Source: Escherichia phage UPWr_E1
Reading direction: 5' to 3' (one strand)
DNA: 64,000 nucleotides
Sequence record: PP418985.1
The first letter of the stretch is position 1. Each line of letters starts with the position of its first letter. Position numbers and translations under genes: made by a program. The notes beneath the pieces are model-generated. The model made no database searches, had not been told where the DNA came from, and saw only the letters and a list, made by a program, of their open reading frames with translations. This document shows, in pieces, positions 8,108 to 63,633 of the stretch.

Positions 8108-8502
8108 GGTATAACATGGCAACTATTAATCAGATGTATACTGATTTGGATCTCAATATATCCAGATCGTGGAATAACGACGTTAAAAAGAACATAGGGA
8201 TTAAAGCGGTTAAGGATTCTATTCTACTGATCGTTACTACTCGCAAGGGATCTCGTCCATTTGATCCACTGTTTGGATGTGATCTCAATAAATCACTGTT
8301 TGAGAACATGAACCCACTGACAGTGGATACCTTATCAAAAAACATCAATGAGGCGATCCGAAACTATGAACCACGGGTCCGAAACCTGACAGTAGAAGTA
8401 ACCCCGCAGTACGACGATAATTCAATCATAGTATCAATCTACTTTTCGGTAATAGATAACCCAGATGATCTTGAACAACTACGCATAAGACTTGCAAAGT
8501 GA
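8104..8502 (+). CDS. 25: Baseplate wedge protein gp25 (GPW/gp25 lysozyme-like family)
   Basis: 132 aa, same as T4 gp25; strong match to remembered T4 gp25 (TRKGSRPFDP-FGCDL, LFENM-PLT, RNYEPR, FSVIDNPDD-EQ). Confidence 0.9.
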   Translation: MRYNMATINQMYTDLDLNISRSWNNDVKKNIGIKAVKDSILLIVTTRKGSRPFDPLFGCDLNKSLFENMNPLTVDTLSKNINEAIRNYEPRVRNLTVEVTPQYDDNSIIVSIYFSVIDNPDDLEQLRIRLAK

Positions 8503-11875: not shown

Positions 11876-14419
11876 ATGTCTAACAAAATCAATGTATTAC
11901 ATCAAACAGAAGGTCCGGTTTATGGTTCCGTTGGTCGTCCACTTCTGTTAAAGATTGTTGTCAGTACAGCAGATTTTAAAGATTTTATAGCAGAATGGAA
12001 GCTGAACGGTGTAAATGTGCCAGCAGAACAAATTTCCGACGCGGATCAGTCTCTGTATATTGAGGAAATGCGAGAAAATCAATTTGGTACATATACATGT
12101 CACATTAAACTGAAAGACGAACCACAGGTCGGTGTAGATATTAAGCCTATTCTTGTACAGCGTAGATTTTTTATTGCACCGCAAGATCAGTCTCCGACGT
12201 ATATTAAAAAACGAATCGGCGAAGAATTAACCCTATTCGCAACACCAGCAATTGAACTAGGTCAACACCCAGAGTTTCAATGGTATCGAAATCATATTCC
12301 GGTAGAACCAGAAAAAATCGAGGACAACCGAACCGTTCATATTGCCCGTGTTGGTCTTATTGATTTTGGCAATTATACGTGTCGTGTTACTGTCCGTGGT
12401 GAACCAGCATCACAATATTGGATTAATCCAATTATTGTAGAAAAGAATGATACCCCTCCTGTAGTGCATCTTAGCGAAGAATATCCTAGCTCTATTACAG
12501 TAGCAGAGGATTCAGCGGTACATCTCAATGTACTTGTTACATCAGATGATAAAGTATCGCCTATTGAGTATACGTGGATTCATAACGGTAGGATTGTTAT
12601 CGAAGAAAACGGAAACTCTTTGGCAATTCCGCATATTCGAAAAGATCAGGAAGGTATCTGGCGTCTTGAGGTAAAACAAGGTGACACTACGGTGTATTCT
12701 AAAGATTGTCATATTGAGGTTGATAGTCAACCATTCTTTAGGATCACACGTCAACCGCAAACTCTTAACGTGTCTGGCGGTGCTTTGGGTTTATTCAGCG
12801 TTGATTATAGAACAAACTATTCACCTGTAAAGATCCAGTGGTATCGTAAAAAGAATACAGAACAGGAGTTTACACCAATTGTAGGTGAGACTAATAAAGA
12901 TCTTCATATTACACCAGCTACTACTGAATTAAACCGAGCACGCTACAAAGCTCGTATCACGTATGGCACAGACCAATACAGAGATTCAGAAGAAGCTGAA
13001 TTGCTAGTAGGTGAAGCATTAACTATTAGAATCACCAAACAACCACAAGCTCTACAAAACGTCCGAGTTTCTTCCTCACAGACGATCACTTGTGAAGCTG
13101 AAACAAACTATGAACATTATCGCTTAGATTATCAGTGGTATAAAGATAACGAATTAATGCCAGGCAAAACATCTAATGTATTGCACTTCTCATCAATCAA
13201 AAAGACAGATGAGGGGCAATATAAGTGTATTGCATCAATGGGTATTTCTGGTCATCGAATTACCGCAGAATCATCACCAGCACAGGTGACAGTAGACAAT
13301 TCAAAGGCATCACTGACTATCACTAAACAGCCAACTGGTGCAACAATTCGCACTGGTGGGTCGTGGTCTATTTCGGTCGAAGCAACATCAAACGATGCAC
13401 TACCGATTCGCTATCGCTGGTTTAAAGACGGCGAAGATCTATTCCCACAAGGCGTTGAACAAAAAAACGTTTACGGTGAAGACCATGCTCAACCTGATTC
13501 GACTGGTGTATATACTTGTCGCGTTTCGGTTGGTTTTGGTGATCACCGAGCGTCTCAAATGTCACATCCAGCAAGGGTGCTAATTAGCGATAATGTGGAA
13601 ATTGTGCCGAATGACTTACAGGTCACCGCACATCCTCATGATAATGACGTTAAGTATAATCAGCGTGTTATCTTAACAGCAAGATCTCAAAATAGCATCG
13701 GGTTAAAACCACATATTCAATGGAAAAAGGATGGTGTTGCTATTCCGGGTGCAAATTCAGAGACTTTAGTCATTGAGCACGCGAAACCATTGGATGCAGG
13801 GGTTTACACCGCAGATATTACCGCAGCAGAAAAAACGGTAACAACCAATCCGGCTACAGTTACTGTAGCAGAGCACAGCAATATTAATATCTTAAAACAT
13901 CCAGTGGATGTGGTTGCAAAAGAAGGACAAACCACCGACATTGTATTGGAAGCTCATGCGGAACATTCTGACGGTGAAACCGAAGTTAGTTATCAGTGGC
14001 ATAAAATTAAAGATGGCGTAGACACTGAAATAAGAGATGCAACAAATAAAACTTTAGTTATCCCTCATGCACAGATCAGCAAGCAAGCTCATCAAGCGAC
14101 CTATTACGCCGAGATAAAAGAAGAGAATGGACACGTTAAACATAGCGAAAAAGTTCGAGTGGTGTTTACTACCGCGAAATTAAAACGCTATGTTCACCCG
14201 ATCCCGTGGCGACGTACATCCTTCCAGTATCAAGGCTATTGGGTTATGGATGAGATTGATCGCTGTAATCGTGAAGGGCTTAACTGGCTTGAGGACTTTA
14301 CGCACACCAAATATCCAGAAGAGATCGAAACTATTGCTGCATCATTGCATCATTATTCAAATACTCATGTATTAGAATCTCGTAATGGTTATCTGGTTGA
14401 TGGTACTCAACTATTTTAA
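11876..14419 (+). CDS. hoc: Hoc-like outer capsid protein with expanded Ig-like array (847 aa)
   Basis: C-terminal YVHPIPWRRTSF...WVMDEI...ESRNGY matches the T4 Hoc capsid-binding domain (YVHPLPHR...GWWVMDEI...ESRNGY); upstream repeated Ig-like modules of about 90-100 aa with YTC-x-V motifs. Confidence 0.85.
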   Translation: MSNKINVLHQTEGPVYGSVGRPLLLKIVVSTADFKDFIAEWKLNGVNVPAEQISDADQSLYIEEMRENQFGTYTCHIKLKDEPQVGVDIKPILVQRRFFIAPQDQSPTYIKKRIGEELTLFATPAIELGQHPEFQWYRNHIPVEPEKIEDNRTVHIARVGLIDFGNYTCRVTVRGEPASQYWINPIIVEKNDTPPVVHLSEEYPSSITVAEDSAVHLNVLVTSDDKVSPIEYTWIHNGRIVIEENGNSLAIPHIRKDQEGIWRLEVKQGDTTVYSKDCHIEVDSQPFFRITRQPQTLNVSGGALGLFSVDYRTNYSPVKIQWYRKKNTEQEFTPIVGETNKDLHITPATTELNRARYKARITYGTDQYRDSEEAELLVGEALTIRITKQPQALQNVRVSSSQTITCEAETNYEHYRLDYQWYKDNELMPGKTSNVLHFSSIKKTDEGQYKCIASMGISGHRITAESSPAQVTVDNSKASLTITKQPTGATIRTGGSWSISVEATSNDALPIRYRWFKDGEDLFPQGVEQKNVYGEDHAQPDSTGVYTCRVSVGFGDHRASQMSHPARVLISDNVEIVPNDLQVTAHPHDNDVKYNQRVILTARSQNSIGLKPHIQWKKDGVAIPGANSETLVIEHAKPLDAGVYTADITAAEKTVTTNPATVTVAEHSNINILKHPVDVVAKEGQTTDIVLEAHAEHSDGETEVSYQWHKIKDGVDTEIRDATNKTLVIPHAQISKQAHQATYYAEIKEENGHVKHSEKVRVVFTTAKLKRYVHPIPWRRTSFQYQGYWVMDEIDRCNREGLNWLEDFTHTKYPEEIETIAASLHHYSNTHVLESRNGYLVDGTQLF

Positions 14420-14463
14420 TATTATTGGTCGCCCTTCGGGGCGACCTTAACGGAGTTATTTTT

Positions 14464-15696
14464 ATGGCATTTACAGTAGCACTAAAATCAAATAAAAAAT
14501 GTTTCCTTGCTGGCGATACATTTAAATTAACGGCTACATTAGCTGGGGTGGAAGATGGTCCGGTCCCATCAAATGTTACCTATGCATGGACTAAAAATGA
14601 TCAGCCAATTGAAAATGAATCAAATGTATTAACGGTCTCTAACGCAACAGCCGAGAGCGCCGGAAAATATAAAGTATCCGTTACTGACACAGACACACAA
14701 GAAGTGGTAGAATCTGCGGTTGTGTCAATGGCAGAAGCAGAATTAGTAGTTAAAATTAATCATCCATCTAGCTACGTCGCATTCGATGAGGCGGTAGAAT
14801 TAACAACTACGGTTTCATATTCAACCGGATTTGCACCGTCTAGCAATTACCAGTTGCATTATAAATGGGAACAAGATCAAACAAATTTAAACCATAGCGA
14901 AAGCACATTATCGATCAGCAACTTCGTCGATGACAACAATGGCGTTTATAAGGTTACTGTATGGGGCGAGTCAGAAACATCAGCGGACAGCGCCAGTGTT
15001 AAACTTGCAGCAATCTCTATATCTGTAGTTGAAGATGTACCACTGGCAAAAACCGTCGCAATGGGTAAACCGATCACACTACCTTATCGCACGATGGGTG
15101 TTTCTATCGGTGACACGTCAGGTCTTCCGGCATTATCAACTAAACAGTCATGGTATTTGCAGCGAGAAGGACAACCGCGCCCGACACTGATCGGGAGTGA
15201 GGTTGGGGAGGCATTGGAAGGGTTTTCTATCATGCCTAACGGCTATTTGCACAAAGAAGCTGCAACAATGGACGACACCGCTAACTTTTGGTGTATCGTA
15301 GAGTTGCTTCAAGAAATTGACGGGCAGCCAGTACCAATCGAAGAAAAAGGTAGCTCTCATTGCGCACTGGAAGTTGTAGAATCACTTCATAAGATGTTCC
15401 GGTATGTGCACCCGATCCCGTGGCGCAAAACTTCGTTTATCTATATTGGATGGTGGGTATTCGACGAGATCGTTAAATTCAATGAGGCAGGGTTAGAATG
15501 GAGAAACCGTGAAGTTTACGAGGATAGCAAATATGCAAGCGACATCGAGACGATCGCGGCAGCGGAAGAAAAATATAGTGATTGCACTTGCATGGAATCT
15601 CGCAATGGTTTCATGTATCAGTCCAAAGAGTTCCATAAACTGGACCGAGAGACATTAGAGCGTGTCCTGCGCATTCGTGAAACGCCTCCTGCTTAA
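14464..15696 (+). CDS. Second Hoc-like paralog (about 410 aa)
   Basis: C-terminus FRYVHPIPWRKTSF...GWWVFDEI...ESRNGF is homologous to the Hoc capsid-binding domain; Ig-like N-terminal modules. ATG 14464 preferred because the track start at 14425 lies inside a hairpin. Confidence 0.8.
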   Translation: MAFTVALKSNKKCFLAGDTFKLTATLAGVEDGPVPSNVTYAWTKNDQPIENESNVLTVSNATAESAGKYKVSVTDTDTQEVVESAVVSMAEAELVVKINHPSSYVAFDEAVELTTTVSYSTGFAPSSNYQLHYKWEQDQTNLNHSESTLSISNFVDDNNGVYKVTVWGESETSADSASVKLAAISISVVEDVPLAKTVAMGKPITLPYRTMGVSIGDTSGLPALSTKQSWYLQREGQPRPTLIGSEVGEALEGFSIMPNGYLHKEAATMDDTANFWCIVELLQEIDGQPVPIEEKGSSHCALEVVESLHKMFRYVHPIPWRKTSFIYIGWWVFDEIVKFNEAGLEWRNREVYEDSKYASDIETIAAAEEKYSDCTCMESRNGFMYQSKEFHKLDRETLERVLRIRETPPA

Positions 15697-15743: not shown

Positions 15744-15771
15744 TTGACAGTGTGATTTAGTGGCTTATAAT
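15744..15771 (+). promoter_or_regulatory. Sigma70-like promoter
   Basis: TTGACA, 16-nt spacer, TATAAT. Confidence 0.6.
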
Positions 15772-15891: not shown

Positions 15892-16089
15892 ATGAATGAG
15901 ATTGTACGATTGATCAAAGAAACACCAATCGAGATGTATTTTCTGGCTTTGGTTGCAACAATGGTCTATCAGCTAGTCGCATGTCATGTATGGAAATCAG
16001 AAAATGCGTTTATCCGGTTTTTTGGTACTGTCATGATCCAGTTTCCGGTACTGATCACTATCCTGTTAATCGTCAATGAGGCGAAGTAA
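15892..16089 (+). CDS. Small hydrophobic protein (65 aa)
   Basis: ORF with hydrophobic segments; overlaps the next ORF at its stop/start. Confidence 0.45.
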   Translation: MNEIVRLIKETPIEMYFLALVATMVYQLVACHVWKSENAFIRFFGTVMIQFPVLITILLIVNEAK

Positions 16090-16364
16090 TGGACAAGAAA
16101 ACAGCGTTAATGGTTTACATGCTACGCGAAGACCACGGTCTTAATTTTGTTGATATTGCTAAAAAGATTGGCGGGTTCAGCGGACAAGATGCGGCTAAGG
16201 CATGGTTGATGGTAAAAGATGCACGAGAGGCTTACGCCAACCGTGAAAAGGTTGTTTATCGTAAACACCACATCAACAAAAAATTTAAAAATAAAGTTCA
16301 AAAACGTGTTGACAAGCCAAATAACACTGTTATAATGGACGCATTCAAACGGGCAATGTCCTGA
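16089..16364 (+). CDS. Hypothetical basic protein (91 aa), possible DNA-binding
   Basis: Translationally coupled ORF; basic C-terminus (KKFKNKVQKR); function not established. Confidence 0.45.
   Translation: MDKKTALMVYMLREDHGLNFVDIAKKIGGFSGQDAAKAWLMVKDAREAYANREKVVYRKHHINKKFKNKVQKRVDKPNNTVIMDAFKRAMS
16309..16336 (+). promoter_or_regulatory. Sigma70-like promoter inside the 3' end of the 91-aa ORF
   Basis: TTGACA, 16-nt spacer, TATAAT; upstream of the ORF at 16411. Confidence 0.55.
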
Positions 16365-16410
16365 TTTGTAATTAATATTCTGAATAACTAATCAATAGAG
16401 GTGACTAATT

Positions 16411-16848
16411 ATGAAATTCCGCAAAAACCACGTAGCAATGAAAAAAGCAATGTTTGAAGCATTCAAAGCAGTTGATCAGGGCGGTGTTACTCTGATTGAG
16501 CAAATTAATGTTGATGTTTGGCAGTCTCCGGCGATCACTTGCTCACGTCTGGCGACGGCTGGTCTTCTGAATGTTCACAGCTCTACAGCATACGACGAAG
16601 CATTGCAAGTTATTAAGGCTTTCGCTGGCGACGTTACCAGCAAGTGGGTCTATGAGAATAAAGGTGAAATTGCGGTTGCTCACGTAGGCAACAATATCCA
16701 GATGGAAATCAAGATTAAGGAAGGGTCTAAACGCAATCAGATGCTTGTTCGCTTCCAGCCATACAAAACTAACGTAGTGCCGGATGATCTGGTCATCTCT
16801 AAGAGTAATGTTACCATTCGCCGAAATCAGATCGTTATCAACAAATAA
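16411..16848 (+). CDS. Hypothetical protein (145 aa)
   Basis: ORF with GAGG Shine-Dalgarno; terminator immediately downstream. Confidence 0.55.
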   Translation: MKFRKNHVAMKKAMFEAFKAVDQGGVTLIEQINVDVWQSPAITCSRLATAGLLNVHSSTAYDEALQVIKAFAGDVTSKWVYENKGEIAVAHVGNNIQMEIKIKEGSKRNQMLVRFQPYKTNVVPDDLVISKSNVTIRRNQIVINK

Positions 16849-16857
16849 TTAACATTA

Positions 16858-16882
16858 GCCGTCCTTCGGGGCGGCTTTTTTG
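16858..16882 (+). terminator. Rho-independent terminator
   Basis: agccgtcc-ttcg-gggcggct hairpin followed by ttttttg. Confidence 0.65.
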
Positions 16883-16935
16883 TATATATCATTAACATAA
16901 TTTTAGTTTACATATGCACATTATTAATACAGTTT

Positions 16936-17007
16936 GATTAAATTATGATCAAAACGAAGAAAGATCTTTAGAACATAGAAAATGTATCTTTGATTAATTA
17001 TTAATCA
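16936..17007. repeat. Intergenic 72-bp repeat, copy A
   Basis: gattaaattatgatcaaaacgaagaaagatctttagaa...attaatca; first 25 nt identical to copy B; contains palindrome aaagatcttt. Confidence 0.7.
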
Positions 17008-17084
17008 CCACATATTGTAACGCAAATGTTATACTCCGTAGGAGTTCGCGAAGCGATATCCTTTTGTGTAGTTTTTACATATAT

Positions 17085-17156
17085 GATTAAATTATGATCA
17101 AAACGAAGACTTATCTTATAGAATAATAAAAATTTGTTTCGAACATTTATTAATCA
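17085..17156. repeat. Intergenic 72-bp repeat, copy B
   Basis: gattaaattatgatcaaaacgaagacttatcttatagaataataaaaatttgtttcg...attaatca; 149 bp downstream of copy A. Confidence 0.7.
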
Positions 17157-17265
17157 ATTACTAGAAGTGTTTTATTGCTCGCTGTGCTCGCTTCCGCTAC
17201 GCGGATACTTGTATTTGTTATTAACTTGTAGTATGATATTGCTTTCTATGGAGGAAAATATTATG

Positions 17266-17850
17266 TTTGACCAGTTACAAGATCTATTTGGAGTAAAACC
17301 ACTTCGTAGATGTGCTTTAATCGGCTCTAGAAAAGCGCCTAGCGACATTTTGATAATGGCTAGTACCATTGGGAGGGTATTGTCAGAAAATCGCGTTGTA
17401 GCGCATTCTGGAGGGGCTTACGGTATGGACAATGCTTTCATGAAGTATTACGATCCAGATTATAGAAAAATTTTCATTCCAAATTGGAAGTTTTATGACC
17501 ACAAGCATAACGGTCATGATGTGATTGCATGGCAAACCTTAGAACAAAAGAATCTGGCGATGGATGAATTAGAACACGTTTATGATAATCCTCGTTCTAT
17601 ACCGTTATACATGCAAAATTTATTTTCTAGAAATGTTGCTCAAGTCTTAGGTGAGACACTTGATGATCCTGTAGATTGTGTGTTATTCTGGGCGAAAGAA
17701 GTTAATGGAATCGTTTCGGGAGGAACTCGAATTGCTGTTTATGTTGCCCGTAGACATGGGATACCATGTTTTAACTTATATCATCAAGAAAATAGATCCG
17801 CCGTCGAAAAAATCTTGGGCGGATCTGATTTGTCTTGGTTAGATATTTAG
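17266..17850 (+). CDS. DprA/SLOG-like Rossmann-fold protein (about 195 aa)
   Basis: ATG at 17266 with GGAGG Shine-Dalgarno (the track's longer ORF from 17134 runs through the repeat). Motifs IGSRKAP and HSGGAYGMD resemble the DprA/Smf and LOG-like Rossmann core; assignment is by motif only. Confidence 0.4.
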   Translation, partial: FDQLQDLFGVKPLRRCALIGSRKAPSDILIMASTIGRVLSENRVVAHSGGAYGMDNAFMKYYDPDYRKIFIPNWKFYDHKHNGHDVIAWQTLEQKNLAMDELEHVYDNPRSIPLYMQNLFSRNVAQVLGETLDDPVDCVLFWAKEVNGIVSGGTRIAVYVARRHGIPCFNLYHQENRSAVEKILGGSDLSWLDI

Positions 17851-19092
17851 TTAAGCGTTGTCAATCTCAAGTGGTGGCAGTTCGATTCCTAAAATGTAGG
17901 ACATTTCAGAGCGTCCAGCCATTTTACCCCAATCGTCACCCTTGATGATCTGGTGTTCTTCCTGATCAACTTTTGATGTATATGGGTTGACAGAGAGTGA
18001 ATAACGATTCATAATAGCTACATGATGCTGGAAGCTATTAGGATCAATTACGCTCTTATACGCGCCAGCGCCATCGGCTTCTGTGTATGGGGAGTAGAAC
18101 AGCGAACCTACGCTCTCCATATCACCGATCATGTGCTTACAGCCAACTAGCATATAATCGAACGGCGTTACCGTGTCTGCGTACACTTCCAGACCGCAAC
18201 GTAGACGTCCTTCGCTTAGAGCGTTGTCGGTTTCTTCCATCCATCCGGTAGACTGCAACAGACCAACTACGCGAGAAGATGCTAAAACGTATGTGCCAGC
18301 AAAGGAGGAAGTACGCAACATTTGATTGCTCATTTCGCAAGCATAGCGGTAAAGTTCACGAGCTTGTTTTGGTGCATCCTGAACGCCAACGAGAGAAAGT
18401 ACACCATCAGTGGTGATTCCTTTAATTTTATAGCGAGTTGATACAGTGATCAACTTCTGCATAATATCTTTGTTGATCTCTTCGGAAGCGACAGTAGCCA
18501 GAAGGTCGATCACAGAATTTTCAGAATTGATTTGGCTTGCCTCAAGATCCTGCATTAATTCAGTGGTGAACGAGGTTTTCAGTTTACGAGAACCTACATT
18601 AACTTGCCACTTGTCAAACTGCATAGAGGTAGACGCAATTTCGGTGTTTTTATCTTCAAAGTATTCTACCGATGCACAATCGCTATAGAAACGAATTTTG
18701 TTTGTCATTACGCCTTTAAAGATCGCAGCTTCTGGAGTTGCGGAATCTTCGCTAACTCGACCAGCAACAACAGCTTGATAAACTACGTCGCCAGATTTAA
18801 ACAGATCACCGATCTTGTATTCTTTTTCCTGTGAAAATTCTTCGATCTCTGTACGATCACCAGCCGCGCCACCGTAGGTTGCAGCAGTTCGGAAAGTCAT
18901 CTGACCATCACGATTAAGATAACGTAGGCCGTACAATGCAGATACTGGTTGATCCGTTGGCTGGATTGCTACCAGATCAGAGAAAATCAGGTTGTTTACC
19001 GCGCGAGTTAATGATAATAGTTGCGGTCGCGCTGTCTGGTTAGCTACTGAGGAAGTAGATTCCCGCAACAGTTCAGTAAAAATATGAGTCAT
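17851..19092 (-). CDS. 24: Capsid vertex protein gp24
   Basis: Matches remembered T4 gp24 N-terminus (ELLRESTxx..RP.L..LTRA...LI.SD.VA.Q.T.QPV.A.YG..YLN); about 413 aa from ATG 19092 (T4 gp24 427 aa); late promoter upstream. Confidence 0.85.
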   Translation of the reverse strand: MTHIFTELLRESTSSVANQTARPQLLSLTRAVNNLIFSDLVAIQPTDQPVSALYGLRYLNRDGQMTFRTAATYGGAAGDRTEIEEFSQEKEYKIGDLFKSGDVVYQAVVAGRVSEDSATPEAAIFKGVMTNKIRFYSDCASVEYFEDKNTEIASTSMQFDKWQVNVGSRKLKTSFTTELMQDLEASQINSENSVIDLLATVASEEINKDIMQKLITVSTRYKIKGITTDGVLSLVGVQDAPKQARELYRYACEMSNQMLRTSSFAGTYVLASSRVVGLLQSTGWMEETDNALSEGRLRCGLEVYADTVTPFDYMLVGCKHMIGDMESVGSLFYSPYTEADGAGAYKSVIDPNSFQHHVAIMNRYSLSVNPYTSKVDQEEHQIIKGDDWGKMAGRSEMSYILGIELPPLEIDNA

Positions 19093-19339: not shown

Positions 19340-20272
19340 TTATGGAGAATTTGGGGTTAATTCAGGGAACAGCGTGCCAAAACCAAAATTACCGCTAGCG
19401 TCACGCTGGAATGTCATAACAAGGTCGACATAAACCGGATCTGTAAATCTATCAAATCTATCCGACCCAATATCAACCATGAACGCTAATTTAATCTCAT
19501 TAGAATTTGAGATCGCAGCGTCAGCACATGCACCAAAAATTACCTGAGTATCTTTTGCCGTATATGCATTGACCTGTATGTTGGTTGGTTTCATTACATC
19601 GTTAGACAAACCAGATAGTTCTACTCGTCCATTAAATGACGCCAGACTTTGACCACCGCCTAGATAATGAATATGACCACCTTGTGAAGATTGTGTCCAG
19701 TCCATTAGCATAACCTTAAATCTAGCCTCAAAACGCCCTTCCACGTAATATCGACCAGTTTCAAAGTTTTGTCTAATTGGTGTCCATGTGATGTGTGGTT
19801 TTCCGCTTACAGGATCGACAAGAGTCACACCTACGGCTGGCTTAATACTGACACTATCAAATGAACGTGATAGCCAATTCCATGTTTGATTGTCTAGGTT
19901 TGGCAATTGTGGAATATTCAATCCATCTAATCGGCTGTGTGCTCGTGCTGCTTCCGATTCTGCGGTAGTCGCTTTAGTCAGTGCATCAGTTGCTTTGCTC
20001 ATGGATTGCCCTGCCGTTCGATCGGCAACATCAGCAGTTGATTTTGCAATCTCTGCCGTTCGATGTGCTGAACTTGCTGTTTCTGTTATTACGTCATCGC
20101 ACGCAATAACAAAATCAATTACAGGATCGATCAATTGAGTGTTGATTGAGTTGGAAATTCGTTCAACATCACTTTCCATTAGAGCATTAGATTCATTTCC
20201 TGTGAAATGAGTAATTTCACCTTGAACAAAATCATTTTGCAACTTGCTGATCTTTGCTTTAATATCGGTCAT
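19340..20272 (-). CDS. Hypothetical late protein (310 aa), putative fibre-associated
   Basis: Ala/Thr/Ser-rich helical N-terminal half (KATDALTKATTAESEAARAHSRL), beta-rich C-terminal half; inside the late-promoter-driven cassette between 23 and 24. Confidence 0.6.
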   Translation of the reverse strand: MTDIKAKISKLQNDFVQGEITHFTGNESNALMESDVERISNSINTQLIDPVIDFVIACDDVITETASSAHRTAEIAKSTADVADRTAGQSMSKATDALTKATTAESEAARAHSRLDGLNIPQLPNLDNQTWNWLSRSFDSVSIKPAVGVTLVDPVSGKPHITWTPIRQNFETGRYYVEGRFEARFKVMLMDWTQSSQGGHIHYLGGGQSLASFNGRVELSGLSNDVMKPTNIQVNAYTAKDTQVIFGACADAAISNSNEIKLAFMVDIGSDRFDRFTDPVYVDLVMTFQRDASGNFGFGTLFPELTPNSP

Positions 20273-20287
20273 GAATCACCCCGCTAA

Positions 20288-22006
20288 TTATTGTGCTTGC
20301 TCTGGAAGTGCTTGTATATTTTCTATAGTAGCACCCCATTTAACGGCATTTAAACGAGCTTTGTGCATATCGTCTTCTCCGACTATTGCCGCAAAACCCT
20401 TTTTAGCGTGGAAATTCGCCCATGTGTTATATGCTAGTGCACCTACGCGTTTTGCTGTGTCGTGTTCAACTTCATCAACCATCAGCATTGTGCGGAAAGG
20501 TGCAAATGCTACATCTGGGTTATCGTCTTGTGTCCATGAACCACCATTAAACGACACCTGCCACCTGAACATCTCACCAGACGGAATTTGATTAATTCTC
20601 AACTTTAGAGATCTTGTTTTCTGGTTTTTCTGAGTTACGTCTAGTGGAACCTGATATCTAGCCGCTTGTCGTTCTCTACCATCATTCATCCTATGCCATG
20701 CGGTAACAACAAGCATAACCGGAATTGTGTTTGATGTTTTAATAAAACTAACATCAACTAAAAGTTCCATATCATAGCTACCAGATTTAGGCGCAACCCA
20801 CCAATGGTCGGCATCAGCTTGTCGATCTGGCTCTTTAATCTGTGGTGTGCATCCATAGTTATCATGAATGACATACTTCCACGGAATGTAAAAAGCACCA
20901 CCGCCAGTTCCTGGATTTGTAACTTCGAGTAGATTTTGTGCAGTGGTAAACACGCTTGACACGCGAGGGAAAGCATAAATGGTAGCACCACCAGTGTGAT
21001 CGCTGATCTGTAACCATTCGGTCCATCGATCAGTTCTCTTTGTATAGGAACGGTGATACATTACGCCATCAATGCTTGTTGCGATCTGCAATACATGATC
21101 TTTACATGCATGAACATCTACAGAACCATGTGTTTGTGTTCCATTTGGACGGTTTGCCGACCCCTCAAAGTAACAGAAACGGCCTTGTTTAGTCAAGGTG
21201 TTTAGGTCTAGCGTTTCTGGCGAAATTTCCGGTAGACGTTTACCCAGACTGGTTAACATCGCCTCCTGATCACCATTTAAACCACCGCCACCACTTCCTT
21301 CCCCGCTTTGAGAGTTCCACTCACGCCATGCACCATTGTGTCGGATGCGAGAGTAAACACCACCATCAATAGAACGGACCACTTGAAGAATGCTACCATC
21401 GACGACATATACATCTGCGGACCCCTTATTCGCCATCATTGGAGGTTTGCCATAGGTTGCATCACCTACCGGATAGCGTCCGGGTGATGTGGTTACATCC
21501 AGATTGTTAATTGGATTCGTCGTAGTCCATTTTACCTCAATTGCAGATAGACGCTGCGCAACGTTCGCTAATACTTCTGGTACTGGAAATACAAGAGATT
21601 CCTGTGTTCCGTCTGAGTACGTGACTTCTAGAGTCCAGTTGCGATCGTCCTCGGACAAATTCGCTTCGATTCTAGCAATGCCACGACCATTTTCGCCCTT
21701 CTCACCAGGAATACCCTGTTCACCCTGAATAACCCAGGTCATATCGACCCATTTTGATTTATCGTAGGGAGATTGTGCTGTTTTACCAGTCCATAATTGG
21801 AGTTTTTCGCCACAAACAATAATTGTTTTTAGTCTTTCCAATTCTGGAAAATGTTCGGTAAAATATTCATCCCTAGCTTCTTCATTTTCGAAACGGTGAG
21901 TATTTTTAATTCCGCTAGGTACGTTAGTTCCGATCTGAATACCACCACCAGAACAACCACCACTCACGGAACCAGCATTAATGATAGCTTGTGGATTTAG
22001 CTTCAT
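20288..22006 (-). CDS. Fibre-like late protein (about 572 aa) with Gly-rich and knob-like repeat modules
   Basis: ATG 22006 with GGGGG Shine-Dalgarno right after the upstream stop. Features: GSVSGGCSGGG, collagen-like GIPGEKGENG, GEGSGGGG linker, two repeated modules (VDGSILQVVRSIDGGVYSRIRHNGAWREW and KDHVLQIATSIDGVMYHRSYTKRTDRWTEW). Confidence 0.6.
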   Translation of the reverse strand: MKLNPQAIINAGSVSGGCSGGGIQIGTNVPSGIKNTHRFENEEARDEYFTEHFPELERLKTIIVCGEKLQLWTGKTAQSPYDKSKWVDMTWVIQGEQGIPGEKGENGRGIARIEANLSEDDRNWTLEVTYSDGTQESLVFPVPEVLANVAQRLSAIEVKWTTTNPINNLDVTTSPGRYPVGDATYGKPPMMANKGSADVYVVDGSILQVVRSIDGGVYSRIRHNGAWREWNSQSGEGSGGGGLNGDQEAMLTSLGKRLPEISPETLDLNTLTKQGRFCYFEGSANRPNGTQTHGSVDVHACKDHVLQIATSIDGVMYHRSYTKRTDRWTEWLQISDHTGGATIYAFPRVSSVFTTAQNLLEVTNPGTGGGAFYIPWKYVIHDNYGCTPQIKEPDRQADADHWWVAPKSGSYDMELLVDVSFIKTSNTIPVMLVVTAWHRMNDGRERQAARYQVPLDVTQKNQKTRSLKLRINQIPSGEMFRWQVSFNGGSWTQDDNPDVAFAPFRTMLMVDEVEHDTAKRVGALAYNTWANFHAKKGFAAIVGEDDMHKARLNAVKWGATIENIQALPEQAQ

Positions 22007-22013
22007 ATAATAA

Positions 22014-22322
22014 TTACCCCCGTTTAGCAAGATACACGGTTACAGTAGAATCATTGGAAACAGATTTTACTTTTGCCCTAATAAATGACCATAATGTTTC
22101 AAACGCTCCACCATCAGTTGCATATTCATTACCATCAGCTTTCAATTCTGAAATAGTGAACCAACCTTTGCCATCTAAGGAACCTTCTAACGAGGCTTCC
22201 GCAATGACTTTTTGCCCTTCCCGTGCACCCTCTACGGTCATCTGTACTGTCATGTGCGTACTATGAACGCAGTTTACCGACGCGGAAACGGCTGGAGTTT
22301 TGGTCTTTATAAGTGTGTGCAT
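22014..22322 (-). CDS. Hypothetical small late protein (102 aa)
   Basis: First gene of the insert; GGGGAG Shine-Dalgarno; late promoter 39 nt upstream. Confidence 0.55.
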   Translation of the reverse strand: MHTLIKTKTPAVSASVNCVHSTHMTVQMTVEGAREGQKVIAEASLEGSLDGKGWFTISELKADGNEYATDGGAFETLWSFIRAKVKSVSNDSTVTVYLAKRG

Positions 22323-53608: not shown

Positions 53609-54430
53609 ATGAGCGTATTTGAAATAATCACAGAAGACGAAAAGCCGTCTCCCCAAAAACGAAAGTCTAAACAGTGGGTCGAATTGGGTGTAGAATTTGC
53701 GAAAGCAAAAGCCAAAGGCATGACAGCTAAAGCATTTGCAGATTCTAAGGGAATAGCCTATGCGACTTTCACTAAAAGTATGTCTCGTTATGCCAGCGAA
53801 ATTAAAACAGCTATAGAAGTTGAAAAACTAAAAGGGAAAGGTGCAAAGGGTCTCAATAAGCAGCAACGCGCAATGATGATGATTAATGATTTTCGTGCGT
53901 CTATGCGTGCTGTATCAAAGAGTCGTCCTAAAGAAAAATCACAGGAGTGGTTTACTAAAACAATAAAAGCGGGAATAAAGGGACACCAGATTGTAAAACC
54001 GCAAGTAGGGCGAATCTATACCTTTATGTATGATGCGAAGTATAAAGACACTTTGCCATATTGGGATGTTTTCCCGCTGATCATTTGTCTGGGTGATTCT
54101 AAGACAAAGGCGGGTAATACTGTAATGCTAGGTCTTAACTTACACTATGTAACGCCTAAAGCCCGTCAGCAGTTTCTGGAAGCACTTTTAAAGCAATATG
54201 CATCTACTCCTACCTTGAGCAATAAAACACGCTTAAAAATCAAATGGAGCGATGTAAAAGGTATGCGTGGAAGTGATCACATGATCAAAGCATATCTACC
54301 AGGACACATTAAAACAAAACTTGTTGAGATTAGCCCGAAAGACTGGAGCAATATTATCTATATGCCTACATATCAGTTTATGTCAAAAGGCAAGAAATAC
54401 GACGCAAGGAAAGTTTGGAAGGATGCATAA
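53609..54430 (+). CDS. 2: DNA end protector protein gp2
   Basis: 273 aa (T4 gp2 274 aa); position between genes 4 and 3. Confidence 0.55.
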   Translation: MSVFEIITEDEKPSPQKRKSKQWVELGVEFAKAKAKGMTAKAFADSKGIAYATFTKSMSRYASEIKTAIEVEKLKGKGAKGLNKQQRAMMMINDFRASMRAVSKSRPKEKSQEWFTKTIKAGIKGHQIVKPQVGRIYTFMYDAKYKDTLPYWDVFPLIICLGDSKTKAGNTVMLGLNLHYVTPKARQQFLEALLKQYASTPTLSNKTRLKIKWSDVKGMRGSDHMIKAYLPGHIKTKLVEISPKDWSNIIYMPTYQFMSKGKKYDARKVWKDA

Positions 54431-54434
54431 GATT

Positions 54435-54458
54435 AAGCCCGTCAATGACGGGCTTTTT
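54435..54458 (+). terminator. Rho-independent terminator after gene 2
   Basis: aagcccgtc-aatg-acgggctt hairpin followed by ttttt. Confidence 0.65.
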
Positions 54459-54460
54459 TA

Positions 54461-54715
54461 TTATAGATCGATAGCATGAGCATAACCATGTAAGAAGTCT
54501 TTTAATTCTTCCTTATTGGTAACACGCTGTAAAATCTCTAATGCCTTGTCGCGATCACGTAATGCACCTGAAAGGGATTTTATTTGGTCATCCCTTTCTG
54601 CAATCTGCTTAAGCAGATCTGTATTGCATTTAGACAAATAGAGAACTTCACCCCGCAATGTTGCCAATTCGTTGTCCAAACGATCATAGAGTTTTAACAA
54701 AATGTCTTCTGTCAT
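54461..54715 (-). CDS. Hypothetical coiled-coil protein (84 aa)
   Basis: ORF antisense to the gene 2/3 cluster; heptad-like pattern; no T4 counterpart recalled at this position. Confidence 0.4.
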   Translation of the reverse strand: MTEDILLKLYDRLDNELATLRGEVLYLSKCNTDLLKQIAERDDQIKSLSGALRDRDKALEILQRVTNKEELKDFLHGYAHAIDL

Positions 54716-54784
54716 AAGAAGTCCTCGTATAGTACCCGTTTTATTTATTACTGTATAAAAATATAGTTATTGGTTAAAACATAA

Positions 54785-54827
54785 CCAAAACGAAGAAAGA
54801 TCTTTAGAATAATAAAAATTTGTTTCG
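54785..54827. repeat. Third copy of the intergenic repeat (core 43 bp)
   Basis: ccaaaacgaagaaagatctttagaataataaaaatttgtttcg, near-identical to the core of copies A and B at 16936..17156. Confidence 0.7.
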
Positions 54828-54904
54828 GTTAAAAAGTAGTCAGTGCCTACGGCACGTCGCAAAGCGACAATTGTTAATAAATATTTTCATTTGAGGAATC
54901 AGTA

Positions 54905-62560: not shown

Positions 62561-62950
62561 ATGTTTAAATTATCTCAAAGAAGCAAAGATCGGCTTGTTG
62601 GTGTGCATCCTGATCTGGTAAAAGTCGTTCATCGTGCATTAGAACTGACTCCGGTCGATTTTGGTATTACAGAAGGTGTACGTAGTCTCGCAACGCAAAA
62701 GAAATATGTTGCGGAAGGTAAATCTAAGACTATGAAATCTCGTCATCTTCACGGTTTCGCGGTTGATGTTGTAGCGTATCCGAAAGATAAAGATACATGG
62801 AACATGAAATATTACCGCATGATCGCTGATGCATTTAAACAAGCTGGTCGAGAATTGGGTGTTCCTGTTGAGTGGGGCGGGGATTGGACTAGTTTTAAAG
62901 ATGGTCCTCATCTACAATTGCCACACAGCAAATACCCAGATCCAAAATAA
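62561..62950 (+). CDS. Peptidase M15-family (VanY / L-alanyl-D-glutamate peptidase-like) cell-wall hydrolase, putative endolysin
   Basis: Zn-ligand-type motifs SRHLHGFAVDV and GGDW...DGPHLQ typical of M15 peptidoglycan peptidases; 129 aa; GGGGG Shine-Dalgarno. Confidence 0.7.
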   Translation: MFKLSQRSKDRLVGVHPDLVKVVHRALELTPVDFGITEGVRSLATQKKYVAEGKSKTMKSRHLHGFAVDVVAYPKDKDTWNMKYYRMIADAFKQAGRELGVPVEWGGDWTSFKDGPHLQLPHSKYPDPK

Positions 62951-63006
62951 AATATTAACCATCAACGGGGAGACAATCTAAGGATCTCTCCCCGTTCACT
63001 GGAGAC

Positions 63007-63498: not shown

Positions 63499-63633
63499 TG
63501 AAAAATAAAGATAGCGTAGCTCGTCGATTCCGTGCTACAATCAATAAGAATCGTAAAGTCCAACCTGATAAACTCTATGGGGTTTTGGTTGGAAAAGTTA
63601 ATGACGAACGTCCTGATCTATAAGAGGTGAATT

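What the first reader, a model, noticed from the sequence alone, without database searches (positions are those of the whole stretch)
16936..17156. Pair of 72-bp direct repeats in a 400-bp non-coding gap
Copies at 16936..17007 and 17085..17156 share an identical 25-nt start (gattaaattatgatcaaaacgaaga) and a conserved tail (attaatca), with a palindromic aaagatcttt core in copy A. They sit in an unusually long non-coding stretch between a terminator and the DprA-like gene. The 78-bp spacer contains a promoter-like ttgtaa...tatact. The arrangement suggests paired protein-binding sites flanking a promoter, or a recombination hotspot.
Basis: seen in the sequence. Interest (0 to 1): 0.45.

Follow-up and report, generated by a model that had tools for sequence, protein, structure and literature searches.

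The report
Repeated intergenic cassette with Fis-like sites
The two 73-bp repeats are real and belong to a conserved four-copy family of non-coding cassettes in RB49-like (Krischvirus) coliphages, shared with one E. coli prophage lineage; they look like promoter-less relatives of the phage's known 'PeSL' regulatory cassettes, and each is bracketed by two matches to the binding site of the host DNA-bending protein Fis, though binding and function are inferred, not shown.

Summary
Observation confirmed. Copies A (16935-17007) and B (17084-17156) share an exact 26-nt head and a 10-nt tail, with none expected by chance. The window is a Krischvirus (RB49/Phi1-like T4-type phage).

The pair is part of a family of four. 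Copy C lies upstream of gene 3 (54770-54842). Copy D lies between genes 35 and 36, outside the window. The Krischvirus records examined carry four copies. The only other carriers found are about 1% of complete E. coli genomes, in one chromosomal prophage lineage.

From A to the ORF164 start codon, the gap evolves about 3x slower than neighbouring third codon positions. There is no Rfam hit, no supported RNA fold and no consensus sigma-70 promoter.

Two features stand out:
- Each core is bracketed by two 15-bp dyads, 55-56 bp apart, that fit the Fis consensus. Exactly the Fis-critical positions are fixed.
- The invariant centre, A(T/C)CAAAACGAAGA, is the same motif that starts the leaders of the phage's PeSL early promoters.

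GC mini-hairpins follow each core. Copy C is a mosaic of A-like and B-like segments.

Best reading: a PeSL-derived cis-acting DNA cassette that recruits a host protein, probably Fis, upstream of promoters and also serves as a recombination substrate. Mechanism is inferred. Moderate interest.

The parts
16857..16876 (+). Intrinsic terminator ending the ORF165 transcription unit (AGCCGTCCTTCGGGGCGGCT plus T-run). It forms the upstream boundary of the gap.
   Evidence: Terminator scan. Annotated as a terminator in GEC-3S and G2248. TransTerm prediction RB49 97821-97838 'ORF164c<--ORF165c' in the Nolan 2006 supplement.
16935..17007 (+). Copy A core (73 bp, AT-rich).
   Evidence: nhmmer with the family profile gives E = 2e-14. 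95.9-100% identical in 58 Krischvirus records.
16936..16950 (.). Dyad A1, GATTAAATTATGATC. Matches 12 of the 13 specified positions of the Fis consensus GNTYAAAWTTTRANC.
   Evidence: Consensus taken from PMC6907758, Table 2.
16948..16960 (+). Invariant block ATCAAAACGAAGA, identical in A and B (ACCAAAACGAAGA in C and D). It is the same motif as the +1 leader of PeSL early promoters.
   Evidence: Alignments. Motif census.
16992..17006 (.). Dyad A2, GATTAATTATTAATC (11/13 to the Fis consensus), lying within the perfect 8-1-8 palindrome TGATTAATTATTAATCA (16991-17007). Its centre is 56 bp from the centre of A1.
   Evidence: The same 15-mer recurs in the prophage at L031 8695-8709.
17027..17035 (+). 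Extended -10-like TGTTATACT. Invariant in 11 genomes. It has no usable -35 (ACCACA/ACTACA).
   Evidence: Read from sequence. No variable columns here. Not reported by the promoter scan.
17033..17056 (+). Two GC mini-hairpins with triloops: ACTCC-GTA-GGAGT (17033-17045) and TCGC-GAA-GCGA (17046-17056).
   Evidence: Read from sequence. Paralogous cassettes carry different but perfectly complementary stems. Invariant in 11 genomes.
17084..17156 (+). Copy B core (73 bp).
   Evidence: nhmmer E = 5e-12.
17085..17099 (.). Dyad B1, GATTAAATTATGATC (12/13 to the Fis consensus).
17141..17155 (.). Dyad B2, GAACATTTATTAATC. Meets the strict pattern GNNYAWWWWWTRNNC and scores 9/13 against the refined consensus. 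Its centre is 56 bp from the centre of B1.
17193..17205 (+). GC mini-hairpin TCCGC-TAC-GCGGA following copy B.
   Evidence: Flagged as terminator-like. Read from sequence.
17209..17237 (+). Weak sigma-70-like promoter candidate TTGTAT-17-TATGAT, just upstream of a PeSL-type leader end (TTTCTATGGAGG...ATG) for ORF164.
   Evidence: Read from sequence. Falls below the scan threshold. This is inference.
17263..17850 (+). ORF164, the DprA-like gene downstream of the cassettes.
   Evidence: Annotation in relatives. Pfam PF02481 at E = 8e-5, below the curated cut-off.
54770..54842 (+). Copy C core, lying between the divergent ORF130 (54461-54715, minus strand) and gene 3. It carries dyads at 54772-54786 (11/13) and 54827-54841 (10/13), 55 bp apart, and the block ACCAAAACGAAGA at 54784-54796.
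   Evidence: Local BLAST, sequence, nhmmer E = 2e-14, dyad scan.
54843..54868 (+). Two GC mini-hairpins after copy C: GTGCC-TAC-GGCAC and GTCGC-AAA-GCGAC.
   Evidence: Sequence. 93% identical to copy D over about 110 nt including these hairpins.
54876..54883 (+). AATAAATA, a late-promoter-like box 22 nt upstream of the gene 3 ATG (54905).
   Evidence: Sequence. RB49-type late promoters take A or T at -13 (PMC1524935). Copy D is followed by the canonical TATAAATA before gene 36.

Best explanation
**What it is.** A and B are two tandem members of a four-copy family of composite intergenic DNA cassettes. The family is specific to Krischvirus and to one E. coli prophage lineage that exchanges DNA with it.

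**Anatomy of each cassette.**
- A 72-73-bp AT-rich core.
- Two 15-bp dyads at the ends of the core, 55-56 bp centre to centre, that fit the consensus for the host nucleoid protein Fis.
- An invariant centre, A(T/C)CAAAACGAAGA...ATCTT(N)TAGAA. Its first 11-13 nt are the same motif that forms the +1 leader of the phage's PeSL early promoters.
- One or two GC mini-hairpins downstream.
- Then whatever promoter serves the next gene: weak sigma-70-like before ORF164, late TATAAATA-type before genes 3 and 36, and a consensus sigma-70 promoter in one variant contig.

**Proposed mechanism (inferred).** The cassette derives from a PeSL regulatory cassette that lost its consensus promoter. It acts as DNA, not RNA. 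A host-encoded protein, most likely Fis, binds both dyads and bends the core into a nucleoprotein module upstream of the adjacent promoter. That module modulates or insulates transcription of the downstream gene. The dispersed, co-oriented homologous copies also serve as substrates for gene conversion and modular exchange.

**Shown:** family membership, conservation and constraint, the consensus fit and its position-specific conservation, the shared PeSL motif, the mosaicism and the horizontal sharing.

**Inferred:** Fis binding, any effect on transcription, and any role in recombination.
For: **Family and distribution.**
- There are four copies per genome (A, B, C, D) with nhmmer E-values of 5e-12 to 3e-15, and no further diverged copies.
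- Every Krischvirus record listed shows 4 places.
- Scans of IMG/VR and of metagenomes recover only Krischvirus and the E. coli prophage.
- The prophage copy is found in 53-58 of 5,426 complete E. coli genomes, always chromosomal and unannotated. None is on a plasmid.

**Constraint.** Across 11 genomes, 16932-17262 has pi = 0.017, against 0.044-0.059 at third codon positions of ORF165 and ORF164 and 0.106 in the stretch just before A.

**Fis-type dyads.**
- All 8 Krischvirus dyads keep G1, Y4, A5, T11, R12 and C15.
- They score 9-12 of 13 against GNTYAAAWTTTRANC (consensus from PMC6907758).
- 4 of the 9 strict matches in the 64-kb window lie in A and B.
- 6 of the 14 sites scoring >=11/13, and 3 of the 4 scoring >=12/13, in all 164 kb of Phi1 lie in the 4 cores, which are about 0.18% of the genome. 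About 0.03 would be expected there.
- Among the five paralogous site types, exactly the six Fis-critical positions are fixed and the other nine all vary (sequences).
- 11 within-copy polymorphisms avoid those six positions; (72/120)^11 = 0.004.
- The Y4/R12 rule holds in 8 of 8 sites, whereas Watson-Crick pairing of those positions does not.

**A host factor is the parsimonious trans factor.** The prophage and Phi1 share only an LprI-like gene and a tail-fibre gene, and no DNA-binding protein.

**Relation to PeSL.**
- A(T/C)C.AAACGAA occurs 7 times in the window, all on the + strand: 3 in cores and 4 at the +1 of consensus early promoters.
- In Phi1 the broader pattern (which also takes ATCAACGAAAC) finds 19 sites: 4 in cores, 13 at promoter +1 positions and 2 elsewhere.
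- The prophage core also keeps the 3' part of the PeSL leader, TTTCTT..GGAGAA..ATCA.

**Not RNA.** There is no Rfam match. RNAalifold gives -5 kcal/mol with a covariation term of +0.5. A and D sit directly after intrinsic terminators. C and D sit upstream of the late promoter.

**Geometry hint.** In contig L019 a TTGACA-17-TAGATT promoter begins 29 nt after dyad 2 of copy C. That centres the dyad at -72, the classical Fis class I position; the -71 reference value is from my own knowledge.

**Recombination.**
- C matches A exactly over 24 nt and B exactly over 23 nt.
- L019 has a different gene joined at the cassette's 3' edge.
- A 385-nt stretch 95% identical is shared between the prophage and Phi1.
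Against: - Fis binding rests on a consensus match only. No binding data exist.
- The dyads are palindromic and AT-rich, so another dimeric protein could be the ligand.
- Dyads C1, D1 and C2 carry one or two G/C pairs in the central 5 bp. From my knowledge of Fis-DNA structural studies, that lowers Fis affinity.
- The prophage dyads are poorer (10/13 and 9/13), and their spacing varies by 3 bp between variants.
- The genome-wide count of Fis-like sites in Phi1 is at chance. The signal is in the clustering, and the copies are paralogous, so the number of independent observations is small.
- Distances from dyad 2 to the putative starts differ between copies: about -43 and -96 for the two weak sigma-70 candidates, and about -55 and -63 for the late promoters. 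No single activation geometry holds.
- From my own knowledge, T4-type late transcription does not use alpha-CTD-dependent activators.
- The invariant central block is not explained by Fis.
- Copy A has TAGAAC where the other copies have TAGAAT.
- All four copies are co-oriented with the downstream gene, and the 16949/16993 positions vary as T-A, T.G and C-G. Both would also fit an RNA-level role.
Confidence: 0.4

Rival explanations
1. RNA-level element. The core plus hairpins is transcribed on the + strand and acts as a cis-acting leader or UTR module (stability, translation or processing) or as a small RNA. It would have inherited the function of the PeSL leader motif AUCAAAACGAA.
For: - All four copies are co-oriented with the downstream gene.
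- The invariant block equals the first 11-13 nt of early mRNAs.
- The downstream hairpins keep perfect complementarity with entirely different stems in A, B, C/D and the prophage variants.
- Positions 16949 and 16993 vary as U-A, U.G and C-G across genomes.
- Single-sequence folds have z-scores of -1.3 to -1.9 on the + strand.
Against: - No Rfam hit at E <= 1.
- RNAalifold finds only two short local hairpins at -5 kcal/mol, with a covariation term of +0.5 and broken pairs.
- The head 'stem' pair (2,14) is broken in 3 of 4 natural variants.
- No credible promoter lies upstream of the cores.
- A and D follow strong intrinsic terminators.
- In C and D the late promoter lies downstream of the cassette, so late mRNAs exclude it.
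Confidence: 0.2
2. Decayed PeSL relics. The copies are leftovers of early-promoter cassettes, the 'half PeSLs' of Comeau et al. 2014, kept alike by gene conversion. They would have no function beyond offering homology for recombination.
For: - The shared +1 leader motif and the AATCA tail typical of the GGAGAATCAAAATG junction.
- Degraded PeSLs near indels are described in PMC4122927.
- Mosaic pattern among the copies.
- Junction at the cassette edge in L019.
Against: - The whole 330-nt region evolves about 3x slower than synonymous sites, while the adjacent 46 nt evolve fast.
- The same four loci are occupied in the Krischvirus records examined.
- The core is also retained in a prophage lineage in 53-58 E. 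coli genomes.
- The position-specific conservation pattern in the dyads is not what gene conversion alone predicts.
Confidence: 0.15
3. Replication-related element: an origin component, a DNA-unwinding element or a priming site. The AT-rich core melts and the GC mini-hairpins (including GCGAAGC) form in single-stranded DNA.
For: - In the prophage the core lies in a 1.25-kb non-coding region, about 450 bp from an array of GTGTAGGTTT iterons that looks like an origin.
- The cores are AT-rich.
- Fis sites occur in origins such as oriC (my own knowledge).
- d(GCGAAGC)-type hairpins, present in A, D and prophage variants, are unusually stable in DNA (my own knowledge).
- RB49-type phages lack MotA-dependent promoters, which T4 origins use.
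Against: - No iterons or other origin features lie next to A, B, C or D.
- The hairpin loops are GNA on the + strand in some copies and on the - strand in others, so there is no consistent single-strand polarity.
- Composition was not examined here for origin signatures.
- Nothing ties the prophage iterons functionally to the core.
Confidence: 0.1
4. Copies A and B are a matched pair of operator-like sites that flank and control a promoter in the spacer between them.
For: - An invariant extended -10-like TGTTATACT (17027-17035) lies between the copies.
- Its predicted start, near 17042, puts dyad A2 at about -43 and dyad B1 at about +50.
Against: - TTGTAA and TATACT are 9 nt apart, so they are not a promoter pair.
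- No promoter passes the scan, and none was predicted in RB49.
- Copies C and D are single and sit next to other kinds of promoter, so pairing is not a property of the element.
Confidence: 0.1

Closest known systems
PeSL (promoter-early stem-loop) cassettes of RB49/phi1 (Arbiol et al. 2010, PMC2839356; Comeau et al. 2014, PMC4122927)
   Same: - Same phages and intergenic location.
- About 100-bp composite repeats with an AT-rich part plus GC stem-loops, placed just upstream of genes.
- Shares the exact leader motif ATC(G/A)AAACGAA and the AATCA tail.
- Shows signs of recombination between copies and at cassette edges.
   Different: - No near-consensus TTGACA-N17-TATAAT.
- The stem-loops are 4-6-bp triloop hairpins rather than G-run/C-run stems.
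- The leader motif is preceded by a dyad instead of a -10 box.
- Two of the four copies sit before late promoters of core virion genes.
- There are only four copies, at fixed loci.
- I could not check whether the authors counted them among their 52 phi1 PeSLs, because the figures and supplement are not held.
Fis upstream activating sequences of stable-RNA promoters (rrnB P1, tyrT). Comparison from my own knowledge.
   Same: - Two or more helically spaced 15-bp Fis sites in AT-rich DNA upstream of a promoter.
- In contig L019 the proximal dyad is centred at -72, next to a consensus promoter.
   Different: - In the window no strong sigma-70 promoter follows.
- Distances to the candidate starts vary between copies.
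- Late T4-type promoters are not known to respond to Fis.
- Binding is untested.
Fis-dependent recombinational enhancers of the Hin/Gin/Cin DNA invertases. Comparison from my own knowledge.
   Same: - A 60-70-bp phage-borne element defined by two Fis sites at its ends.
- Associated with recombination.
   Different: - The spacing is 55-56 bp, not 48 bp.
- No invertase gene appears in the Phi1 annotation. Crossover (hix/gix-like) sites were not searched for.
- The centre of the element is sequence-conserved here, whereas in those enhancers it is not.
Bacterial BIME/RIP-type intergenic repeats: REP palindromes combined with an IHF site. Comparison from my own knowledge.
   Same: - Dispersed intergenic mosaics that pair GC-rich hairpin-forming palindromes with a binding site for a nucleoid-associated protein.
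- Located after terminators and between transcription units.
   Different: - No sequence relationship.
- Located in phage genomes rather than the chromosome.
- An AT-rich Fis-like core rather than an IHF site.
- Only four copies.

Membership tests
PeSL cassette (Arbiol 2010) | Near-perfect sigma-70 promoter TTGACA-N17-TATAAT inside the cassette | tested here: not met
   No + strand promoter-like site lies between 16849 and 17263. A scan requiring >=11/12 matches finds PeSL-type promoters at 15744, 16309, 56962 and elsewhere, but none in the gap or at copy C. Nolan 2006 predicted no RB49 early promoter in the gap.
PeSL cassette (Arbiol 2010) | Stable stem-loop (G-run, loop, C-run) within or beside the promoter | tested here: inconclusive
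   GC hairpins follow every core (17033-17056, 17193-17205, 54843-54868). They are 4-6-bp triloop hairpins, not G-run/C-run stems. Their terminator activity is untested.
PeSL cassette (Arbiol 2010) | AT-rich region upstream, and a Shine-Dalgarno sequence plus start codon of the next gene at the 3' end | tested here: inconclusive
   The AT-rich core is present in all copies. A Shine-Dalgarno sequence plus ATG directly follows only the B cassette (GGAGG...ATG at 17263). A is followed by B, and C and D by a late promoter.
PeSL cassette (Arbiol 2010) | Shared leader sequence at +1. This is my own observation on PeSL-type promoters, not a published criterion. | tested here: met
   A(T/C)C.AAACGAA is found only in the cores and at the +1 of consensus early promoters in the window: 7 of 7, all on the + strand. 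With the broader pattern, 17 of 19 sites in Phi1 are in those two contexts.
Fis binding site or Fis UAS | 15-bp motif GNTYAAAWTTTRANC with G at -7, C at +7, YA/TR at -4,-3/+3,+4 and an AT-rich centre | tested here: met
   8 of 8 Krischvirus dyads keep all six critical positions, and they score 9-12 of 13. Four strict matches lie in A and B. The centre is fully A/T in A1, A2, B1, B2 and D2, but has 1-2 G/C pairs in C1, C2 and D1.
Fis binding site or Fis UAS | Demonstrated binding of Fis, and Fis-dependent change in promoter activity | not testable with these tools
   Requires EMSA or footprinting, ChIP, and a fis mutant host.
Fis binding site or Fis UAS | Proximal site centred near -71 (class I) or -41 (class II) of a sigma-70 promoter | tested here: inconclusive
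   The proximal dyad is at -72 in the L019 variant. For the weak candidates in the window it is at about -43 (A2, relative to TGTTATACT) and about -96 (B2). Relative to the late promoter starts it is at about -55 and -63.
Hin/Gin/Cin recombinational enhancer | Two Fis sites 48 bp apart acting with a serine invertase and inverted crossover sites | tested here: not met
   The spacing is 55-56 bp. No invertase gene is annotated in the Phi1 genome. Crossover sites were not searched for. The 48-bp figure is from my own knowledge.
Structured non-coding RNA (Rfam family or conserved fold) | Match to a covariance model, or a consensus structure supported by covariation | tested here: not met
   No Rfam match at E <= 1 inside the gap proper; the weak hits overlap the ORF165 end and its terminator. 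RNAalifold gives -5 kcal/mol, a covariation term of +0.5, and 1 compensated against 3 broken sequences at the variable pair.
MITE-like mobile element | Terminal inverted repeats, target-site duplication and variable insertion sites | tested here: not met
   Inverted ends (TGATTAA...TTAATCA) and flanking direct repeats (TTTGATTAA in A, GGTTAAAA in C and D) exist. They are explained as the left halves of the two dyads. Homology continues outside them. The four loci are the same in the Krischvirus genomes examined.
Protein-coding micro-ORF | Conserved ORF with a ribosome-binding site | tested here: not met
   ATG-initiated 8- and 10-codon ORFs occur in A and B only, with no Shine-Dalgarno sequence, and are absent in C and D. 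The 23-aa ORF at 17026-17097 also lacks a Shine-Dalgarno sequence.

The most novel reading that the evidence does not exclude
The cores are enhancer-like modules that depend on a host nucleoid protein, Fis. Through them a strictly virulent T4-type phage, and a temperate E. coli phage that trades DNA with it, would couple expression or recombination of adjacent genes (ORF164, tail-completion gene 3, tail-fibre gene 36) to the growth state of the host. To my knowledge that would be the first Fis-dependent cis element described in a T4-type phage. It would also be a portable regulatory module moving between virulent and temperate phages.
Probability: 0.15. Interest if true: 0.7.

Novelty: new variant of a known kind. 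Interest (0 to 1): 0.45.

Why it matters
RB49-type phages lack the MotA middle-mode system. Their only described non-coding regulatory repeats are the PeSL promoter-terminator cassettes, which are proposed to drive modular gene shuffling.

This family is a distinct, strongly constrained variant. It has no consensus promoter, it sits next to late virion genes as well as an accessory gene, and its conservation pattern points to a host DNA-bending protein.

If Fis or another host factor binds, it would show how a virulent phage reads host physiology through cis elements. The finding that the same cassette sits in an E. coli prophage, alongside a shared tail-fibre gene and an LprI-like gene, documents regulatory DNA moving between virulent and temperate phages.

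If nothing binds, the family is still a clean natural test of the PeSL recombination model, because it is a mosaic set of copies at fixed loci.

Tried and rejected
**RNA and coding readings**
- Rfam at E <= 1 on 16000-18000 and on the prophage region gave nothing relevant.
- Single-sequence folds of the cores on both strands gave only weak z-scores. RNAalifold gave no supported structure.
- Micro-ORFs were rejected: MIKTKKDL and MIKTKTYLIE in A and B, the 23-aa ORF at 17026-17097, and a 22-aa reading in the prophage. The reasons were no Shine-Dalgarno sequence, no conservation across copies, or frameshifts between variants.

**Mobile-element reading**
- A MITE or target-site-duplication reading of the flanking direct repeats was rejected. 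See the membership test.

**Promoters inside the core**
- T(G/A/C)A(T/C)CA-17-TAGAAT has only 3 of 6 matches at -35, and copy A has TAGAAC. It was kept only as a remote possibility.
- No late (TATAAATA) or Mot-box promoter lies in the gap.

**Other host-factor motifs**
- FNR, IHF, CRP, ArcA, ArgR, PurR, Cra, Fur and the H-NS site were checked by eye against consensus sequences recalled from memory. None fitted across copies. This was not a systematic scan.

**Prophage leads**
- TATAAATA boxes in the prophage: six, all in its early region and none before structural genes, so probably just -10-like AT-rich DNA.
- Pfam and PHROGs on eight prophage proteins near the element gave only a Rha-like regulator and a small terminase subunit. 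No replication or DNA-binding clue emerged.

**Database scans**
- The looser IMG/VR pattern TTAAA-N7-CAAAACGAAG returned only chance hits.
- The GTDB representative genomes gave 0 hits.
- PLSDB plasmids gave no match.

**Literature**
- The search for Krischvirus transcriptomics found nothing directly relevant, and the search for Fis in T4-type phages likewise found nothing directly relevant.
- Desplats 2002 is not held.
- The PeSL paper's supplement is not held.
Full report
**Source and observation.**
The window is a Krischvirus, an RB49/Phi1/JSE-type T4-like coliphage. 1.5 kb around the finding matches 58 phage records at 95-99% identity. The window's + strand corresponds to the minus strand of Phi1, NC_009821.1.

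The repeat is real. Copy A is at 16935-17007 and copy B at 17084-17156. Each is 73 nt, and they are 73% identical without gaps. They share an exact 26-nt head that occurs nowhere else in the window at up to 3 mismatches, with 0 expected in shuffles, and a common tail TTATTAATCA.

They lie between the intrinsic terminator of ORF165 (16857-16876) and the DprA-like ORF164 (17263-17850). This is the longest intergenic gap I could find in the Phi1 annotation tables.

TATACT is, however, preceded by TGT, which makes an extended -10-like motif.

**A family of four, not a pair.**
Local BLAST and a profile search find a third copy, C, at 54770-54842. It lies between the divergent ORF130 and tail-completion gene 3. 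A fourth copy, D, lies outside the window at Phi1 149926-149999, between tail-fibre genes 35 and 36. No further diverged copies exist.

- C and D are 93% identical over about 110 nt.
- All four copies point the same way as the gene downstream.
- Every Krischvirus record listed shows four places. The gap itself is 93.6-97.1% identical in all 58 records.

**Composite cassettes.**
Each core is followed by small GC hairpins with 3-nt loops:

| Copy | Hairpins |
|---|---|
| A | ACTCC-GTA-GGAGT and TCGC-GAA-GCGA |
| B | TCCGC-TAC-GCGGA |
| C | GTGCC-TAC-GGCAC and GTCGC-AAA-GCGAC |
| D | GTGCC-TAC-GGCAC and TCGC-GAA-GCGA |

The stems differ completely between copies yet are always perfectly complementary, so the hairpin or palindrome itself is selected.

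After the hairpins comes whatever promoter serves the next gene:
- After D, a canonical late TATAAATA.
- After C, AATAAATA. RB49-type late promoters accept A at -13 (PMC1524935).
- After B, a weak TTGTAT-17-TATGAT.
- After A, the extended -10-like TGTTATACT, which overlaps hairpin 1.

**Distribution outside the genus.**
An exact-pattern scan of IMG/VR and of metagenome contigs returns only two lineages: Krischvirus, and 20-45-kb contigs that are a chromosomal E. coli prophage.

- The prophage is present in 53-58 of 5,426 complete E. coli genomes, always in unannotated DNA.
- It is absent from plasmids and from the GTDB representative genomes.
- Its copy is 77-81% identical to A over 73 nt.
- It has the same architecture: a core followed by GCAACC-GAA-GGTTGC and TCCC-GAA-GGGA.
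- It sits in a 1.25-kb non-coding region that also holds GTGTAGGTTT iterons, a strong sigma-70 promoter, and a second partial copy of A's 3' half including the 17-nt palindrome.

The prophage and Phi1 also share a 385-nt stretch that is 95% identical, in the LprI-like ORF262, and a gp37-related tail fibre. They share no DNA-binding protein.

**Constraint.**
In an 11-genome alignment, nucleotide diversity (pi) and the fraction of variable sites are:

| Region | pi | Variable sites |
|---|---|---|
| 16932-17262 (A through the ORF164 start) | 0.017 | 6.9% |
| Third codon positions, ORF164 / ORF165 | 0.044 / 0.059 | 14% / 20% |
| 46 nt just before A (16886-16931) | 0.106 | 41% |

So the cores, the spacer with its hairpins, and the stretch after B are all under purifying selection.

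**Not an RNA structure, not coding, not a canonical PeSL.**
- Rfam gives nothing.
- RNAalifold on ten family members finds only two short local hairpins, at -5 kcal/mol with a covariation term of +0.5.
- Micro-ORFs are not conserved and lack ribosome-binding sites.
- No consensus sigma-70 promoter lies in the gap or at C. Nolan et al. predicted no RB49 early promoter there. The defining feature of a PeSL, TTGACA-N17-TATAAT (PMC2839356, PMC4122927), is therefore not met.

**Link to PeSLs.**
The invariant centre of the core, A(T/C)CAAAACGAAGA, is the same motif that begins the transcribed leader of the phage's consensus early promoters: ...TATAAT-N6-ATC(G/A)AAACGAAAC...TTTCTT..GGAGAATCAAAATG.

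- In the window, A(T/C)C.AAACGAA occurs seven times, all on the + strand: three in cores and four exactly at the +1 of such promoters.
- In Phi1, the broader pattern finds 19 sites: four in cores, thirteen at promoter +1 positions and two elsewhere.
- The prophage core also retains the 3' part of the leader (TTTCTTTTGGAGAA...ATCA).
- The AATCA tail of all cores matches the usual spacer between the Shine-Dalgarno sequence and the ATG.

I conclude that the family is derived from, or shares a functional motif with, PeSL cassettes.

**Paired Fis-type dyads.**
The head and tail of every core are 15-bp dyads that fit the Fis consensus GNTYAAAWTTTRANC (PMC6907758, Table 2).

| Dyad | Sequence | Match |
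|---|---|---|
| A1, B1 | GATTAAATTATGATC | 12/13 |
| A2 | GATTAATTATTAATC | 11/13 |
| B2 | GAACATTTATTAATC | 9/13 (meets the strict pattern) |
| C1 | GGTTAAAACATAACC | 11/13 |
| C2 | GGTTAAAAAGTAGTC | 10/13 |
| D1 | GGTTAAAATGTAACC | 12/13 |
| D2 | GGTTAAAAATTAGTC | 11/13 |

Centre-to-centre spacing is 56 bp in A, B and Phi1's D, and 55 bp in C. Some D variants carry a 1-nt deletion that would also give 55 bp.

*Clustering.*
- Four of the nine strict matches (GNNYAWWWWWTRNNC) in the 64-kb window are in A and B.
- In the whole Phi1 genome, 6 of the 14 sites at >=11/13 and 3 of the 4 at >=12/13 lie in the four cores.
- The genome-wide count is at chance, so the signal is the clustering.

*Position-specific conservation.*
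- Across the five paralogous site types, exactly positions 1, 4 (Y), 5, 11, 12 (R) and 15 are fixed, and the other nine positions all vary.
- The 11 polymorphisms seen within orthologous copies all avoid those six positions; (72/120)^11 = 0.004.

*Hairpin alternative.*
- A hairpin reading of the same dyads fails. Pair (2,14) is broken in three of four variants, and the (4,12) positions obey Y/R rather than Watson-Crick pairing.
- The direct repeats flanking the 'insert' (TTTGATTAA in A, GGTTAAAA in C and D) are simply the left halves of the two dyads.

*Host factor.* Because the two phage lineages share no DNA-binding protein, a host factor is the economical candidate.

*Caveats.*
- This is a consensus fit, not binding.
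- Some dyads have G/C pairs in the centre.
- The prophage dyads are weaker.
- The copies are paralogous, so the number of independent observations is small.

**What it may do.**
I commit to a DNA-level model. The cassette is a PeSL-derived cis element in which a host protein, probably Fis, binds both ends of the core and bends it. This forms a module upstream of the next promoter that tunes or insulates transcription, while the GC palindromes separate it from the promoter.

One variant contig, L019, has a TTGACA-17-TAGATT promoter starting 29 nt after dyad 2 of C. That centres the dyad at -72, the classical Fis activation position as I know it. In the window itself the distances to candidate starts differ between copies. 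T4-type late promoters are not known to use such activators. The central invariant block is also unexplained. Confidence is therefore 0.4.

**Recombination.**
- Copy C is identical to A over 24 nt and to B over 23 nt.
- By segment, as I read the alignment: the head groups A with B and C with D. The left centre groups A, C and D. The right centre groups B, C and D. The tail groups A with B.
- This is a gene-conversion mosaic.
- L019 shows a different gene joined at the cassette's 3' edge.
I did not measure any recombination frequency.

**Verdict.**
- The element is a new variant of a known kind, a PeSL-related regulatory cassette, with a specific and testable lead: paired Fis-type sites.
- Interest is moderate.

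Noticed in passing
L031 7588-8837 (IMG/VR contig); same as L036 about 20577-21850 in E. coli DEC5A, NZ_CP038394.1: The E. coli prophage that shares the element has a 1.25-kb stretch with no annotated gene. It holds about ten GTGTAGGTTT iterons (8160-8290), repeated CCCTTTC motifs interleaved with GC triloop hairpins, and a consensus TTGACA-17-TATACT promoter. It looks like an uncharacterised replication or control region. The neighbouring proteins have no Pfam or PHROG hits.
   Followed up: partly
L031 12016-12400 against Phi1 158696-158312; L036 tail-fibre ORF against Phi1 gene 37 (151643-154585): The prophage and Krischvirus share a 95%-identical 385-nt piece of an LprI-family gene (Phi1 ORF262). 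They also share a gp37-related tail fibre, 61% amino-acid identity over the C-terminal 139 residues. This is evidence of recent DNA exchange between a virulent and a temperate coliphage.
   Followed up: partly
window 56997, 58990, 59261, 59976 (+ strand); Phi1 at 13 sites: PeSL-type early promoters share a stereotyped transcribed leader, ATC(G/A)AAACGAAAC...TTTCTT..GGAGAATCAAAATG, starting at +1. The published PeSL description, as far as I could read it, stresses the promoter and stem-loop rather than this leader.
   Followed up: partly
window 54430-54461, compared with Phi1 62925-63956: Phi1 carries an extra endonuclease gene (ORF130.1, probably a homing endonuclease) between gene 2 and ORF130. 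The window lacks it. The polymorphism lies about 300 bp from copy C.
   Followed up: no
L019 (IMGVR_UViG_3300045988_033703), minus strand around locus position 2805: A Krischvirus-like 150-kb contig has a different downstream sequence, with a TTGACA-17-TAGATT promoter, joined immediately after hairpin 2 of copy C (junction ...GCGACAATTG|ACATT). It appears to be an inserted gene between C and gene 3.
   Followed up: partly
window 11982-15389 and 19502-22313: Two stretches have no megablast match to Phi1. The first covers most of the Hoc-like ORF (14425-15696); only its 3' end aligns. The second lies between genes 24 and 23. These are variable regions of the genus.
   Followed up: no
L036 19839-24099: Six exact TATAAATA boxes, the T4 late-promoter consensus, all fall in the 4-kb early or control region of the prophage, and three sit 45-50 nt before gene starts. 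None lies in its 19-kb structural block. This is probably -10-like AT-rich DNA, but the clustering is unexplained.
   Followed up: partly
window 16886-16931: The 46 nt between the ORF165 terminator and copy A are the fastest-evolving part of the locus (pi 0.106, with a divergent block in phage G2248). This contrasts sharply with the constrained 330 nt that follow.
   Followed up: partly
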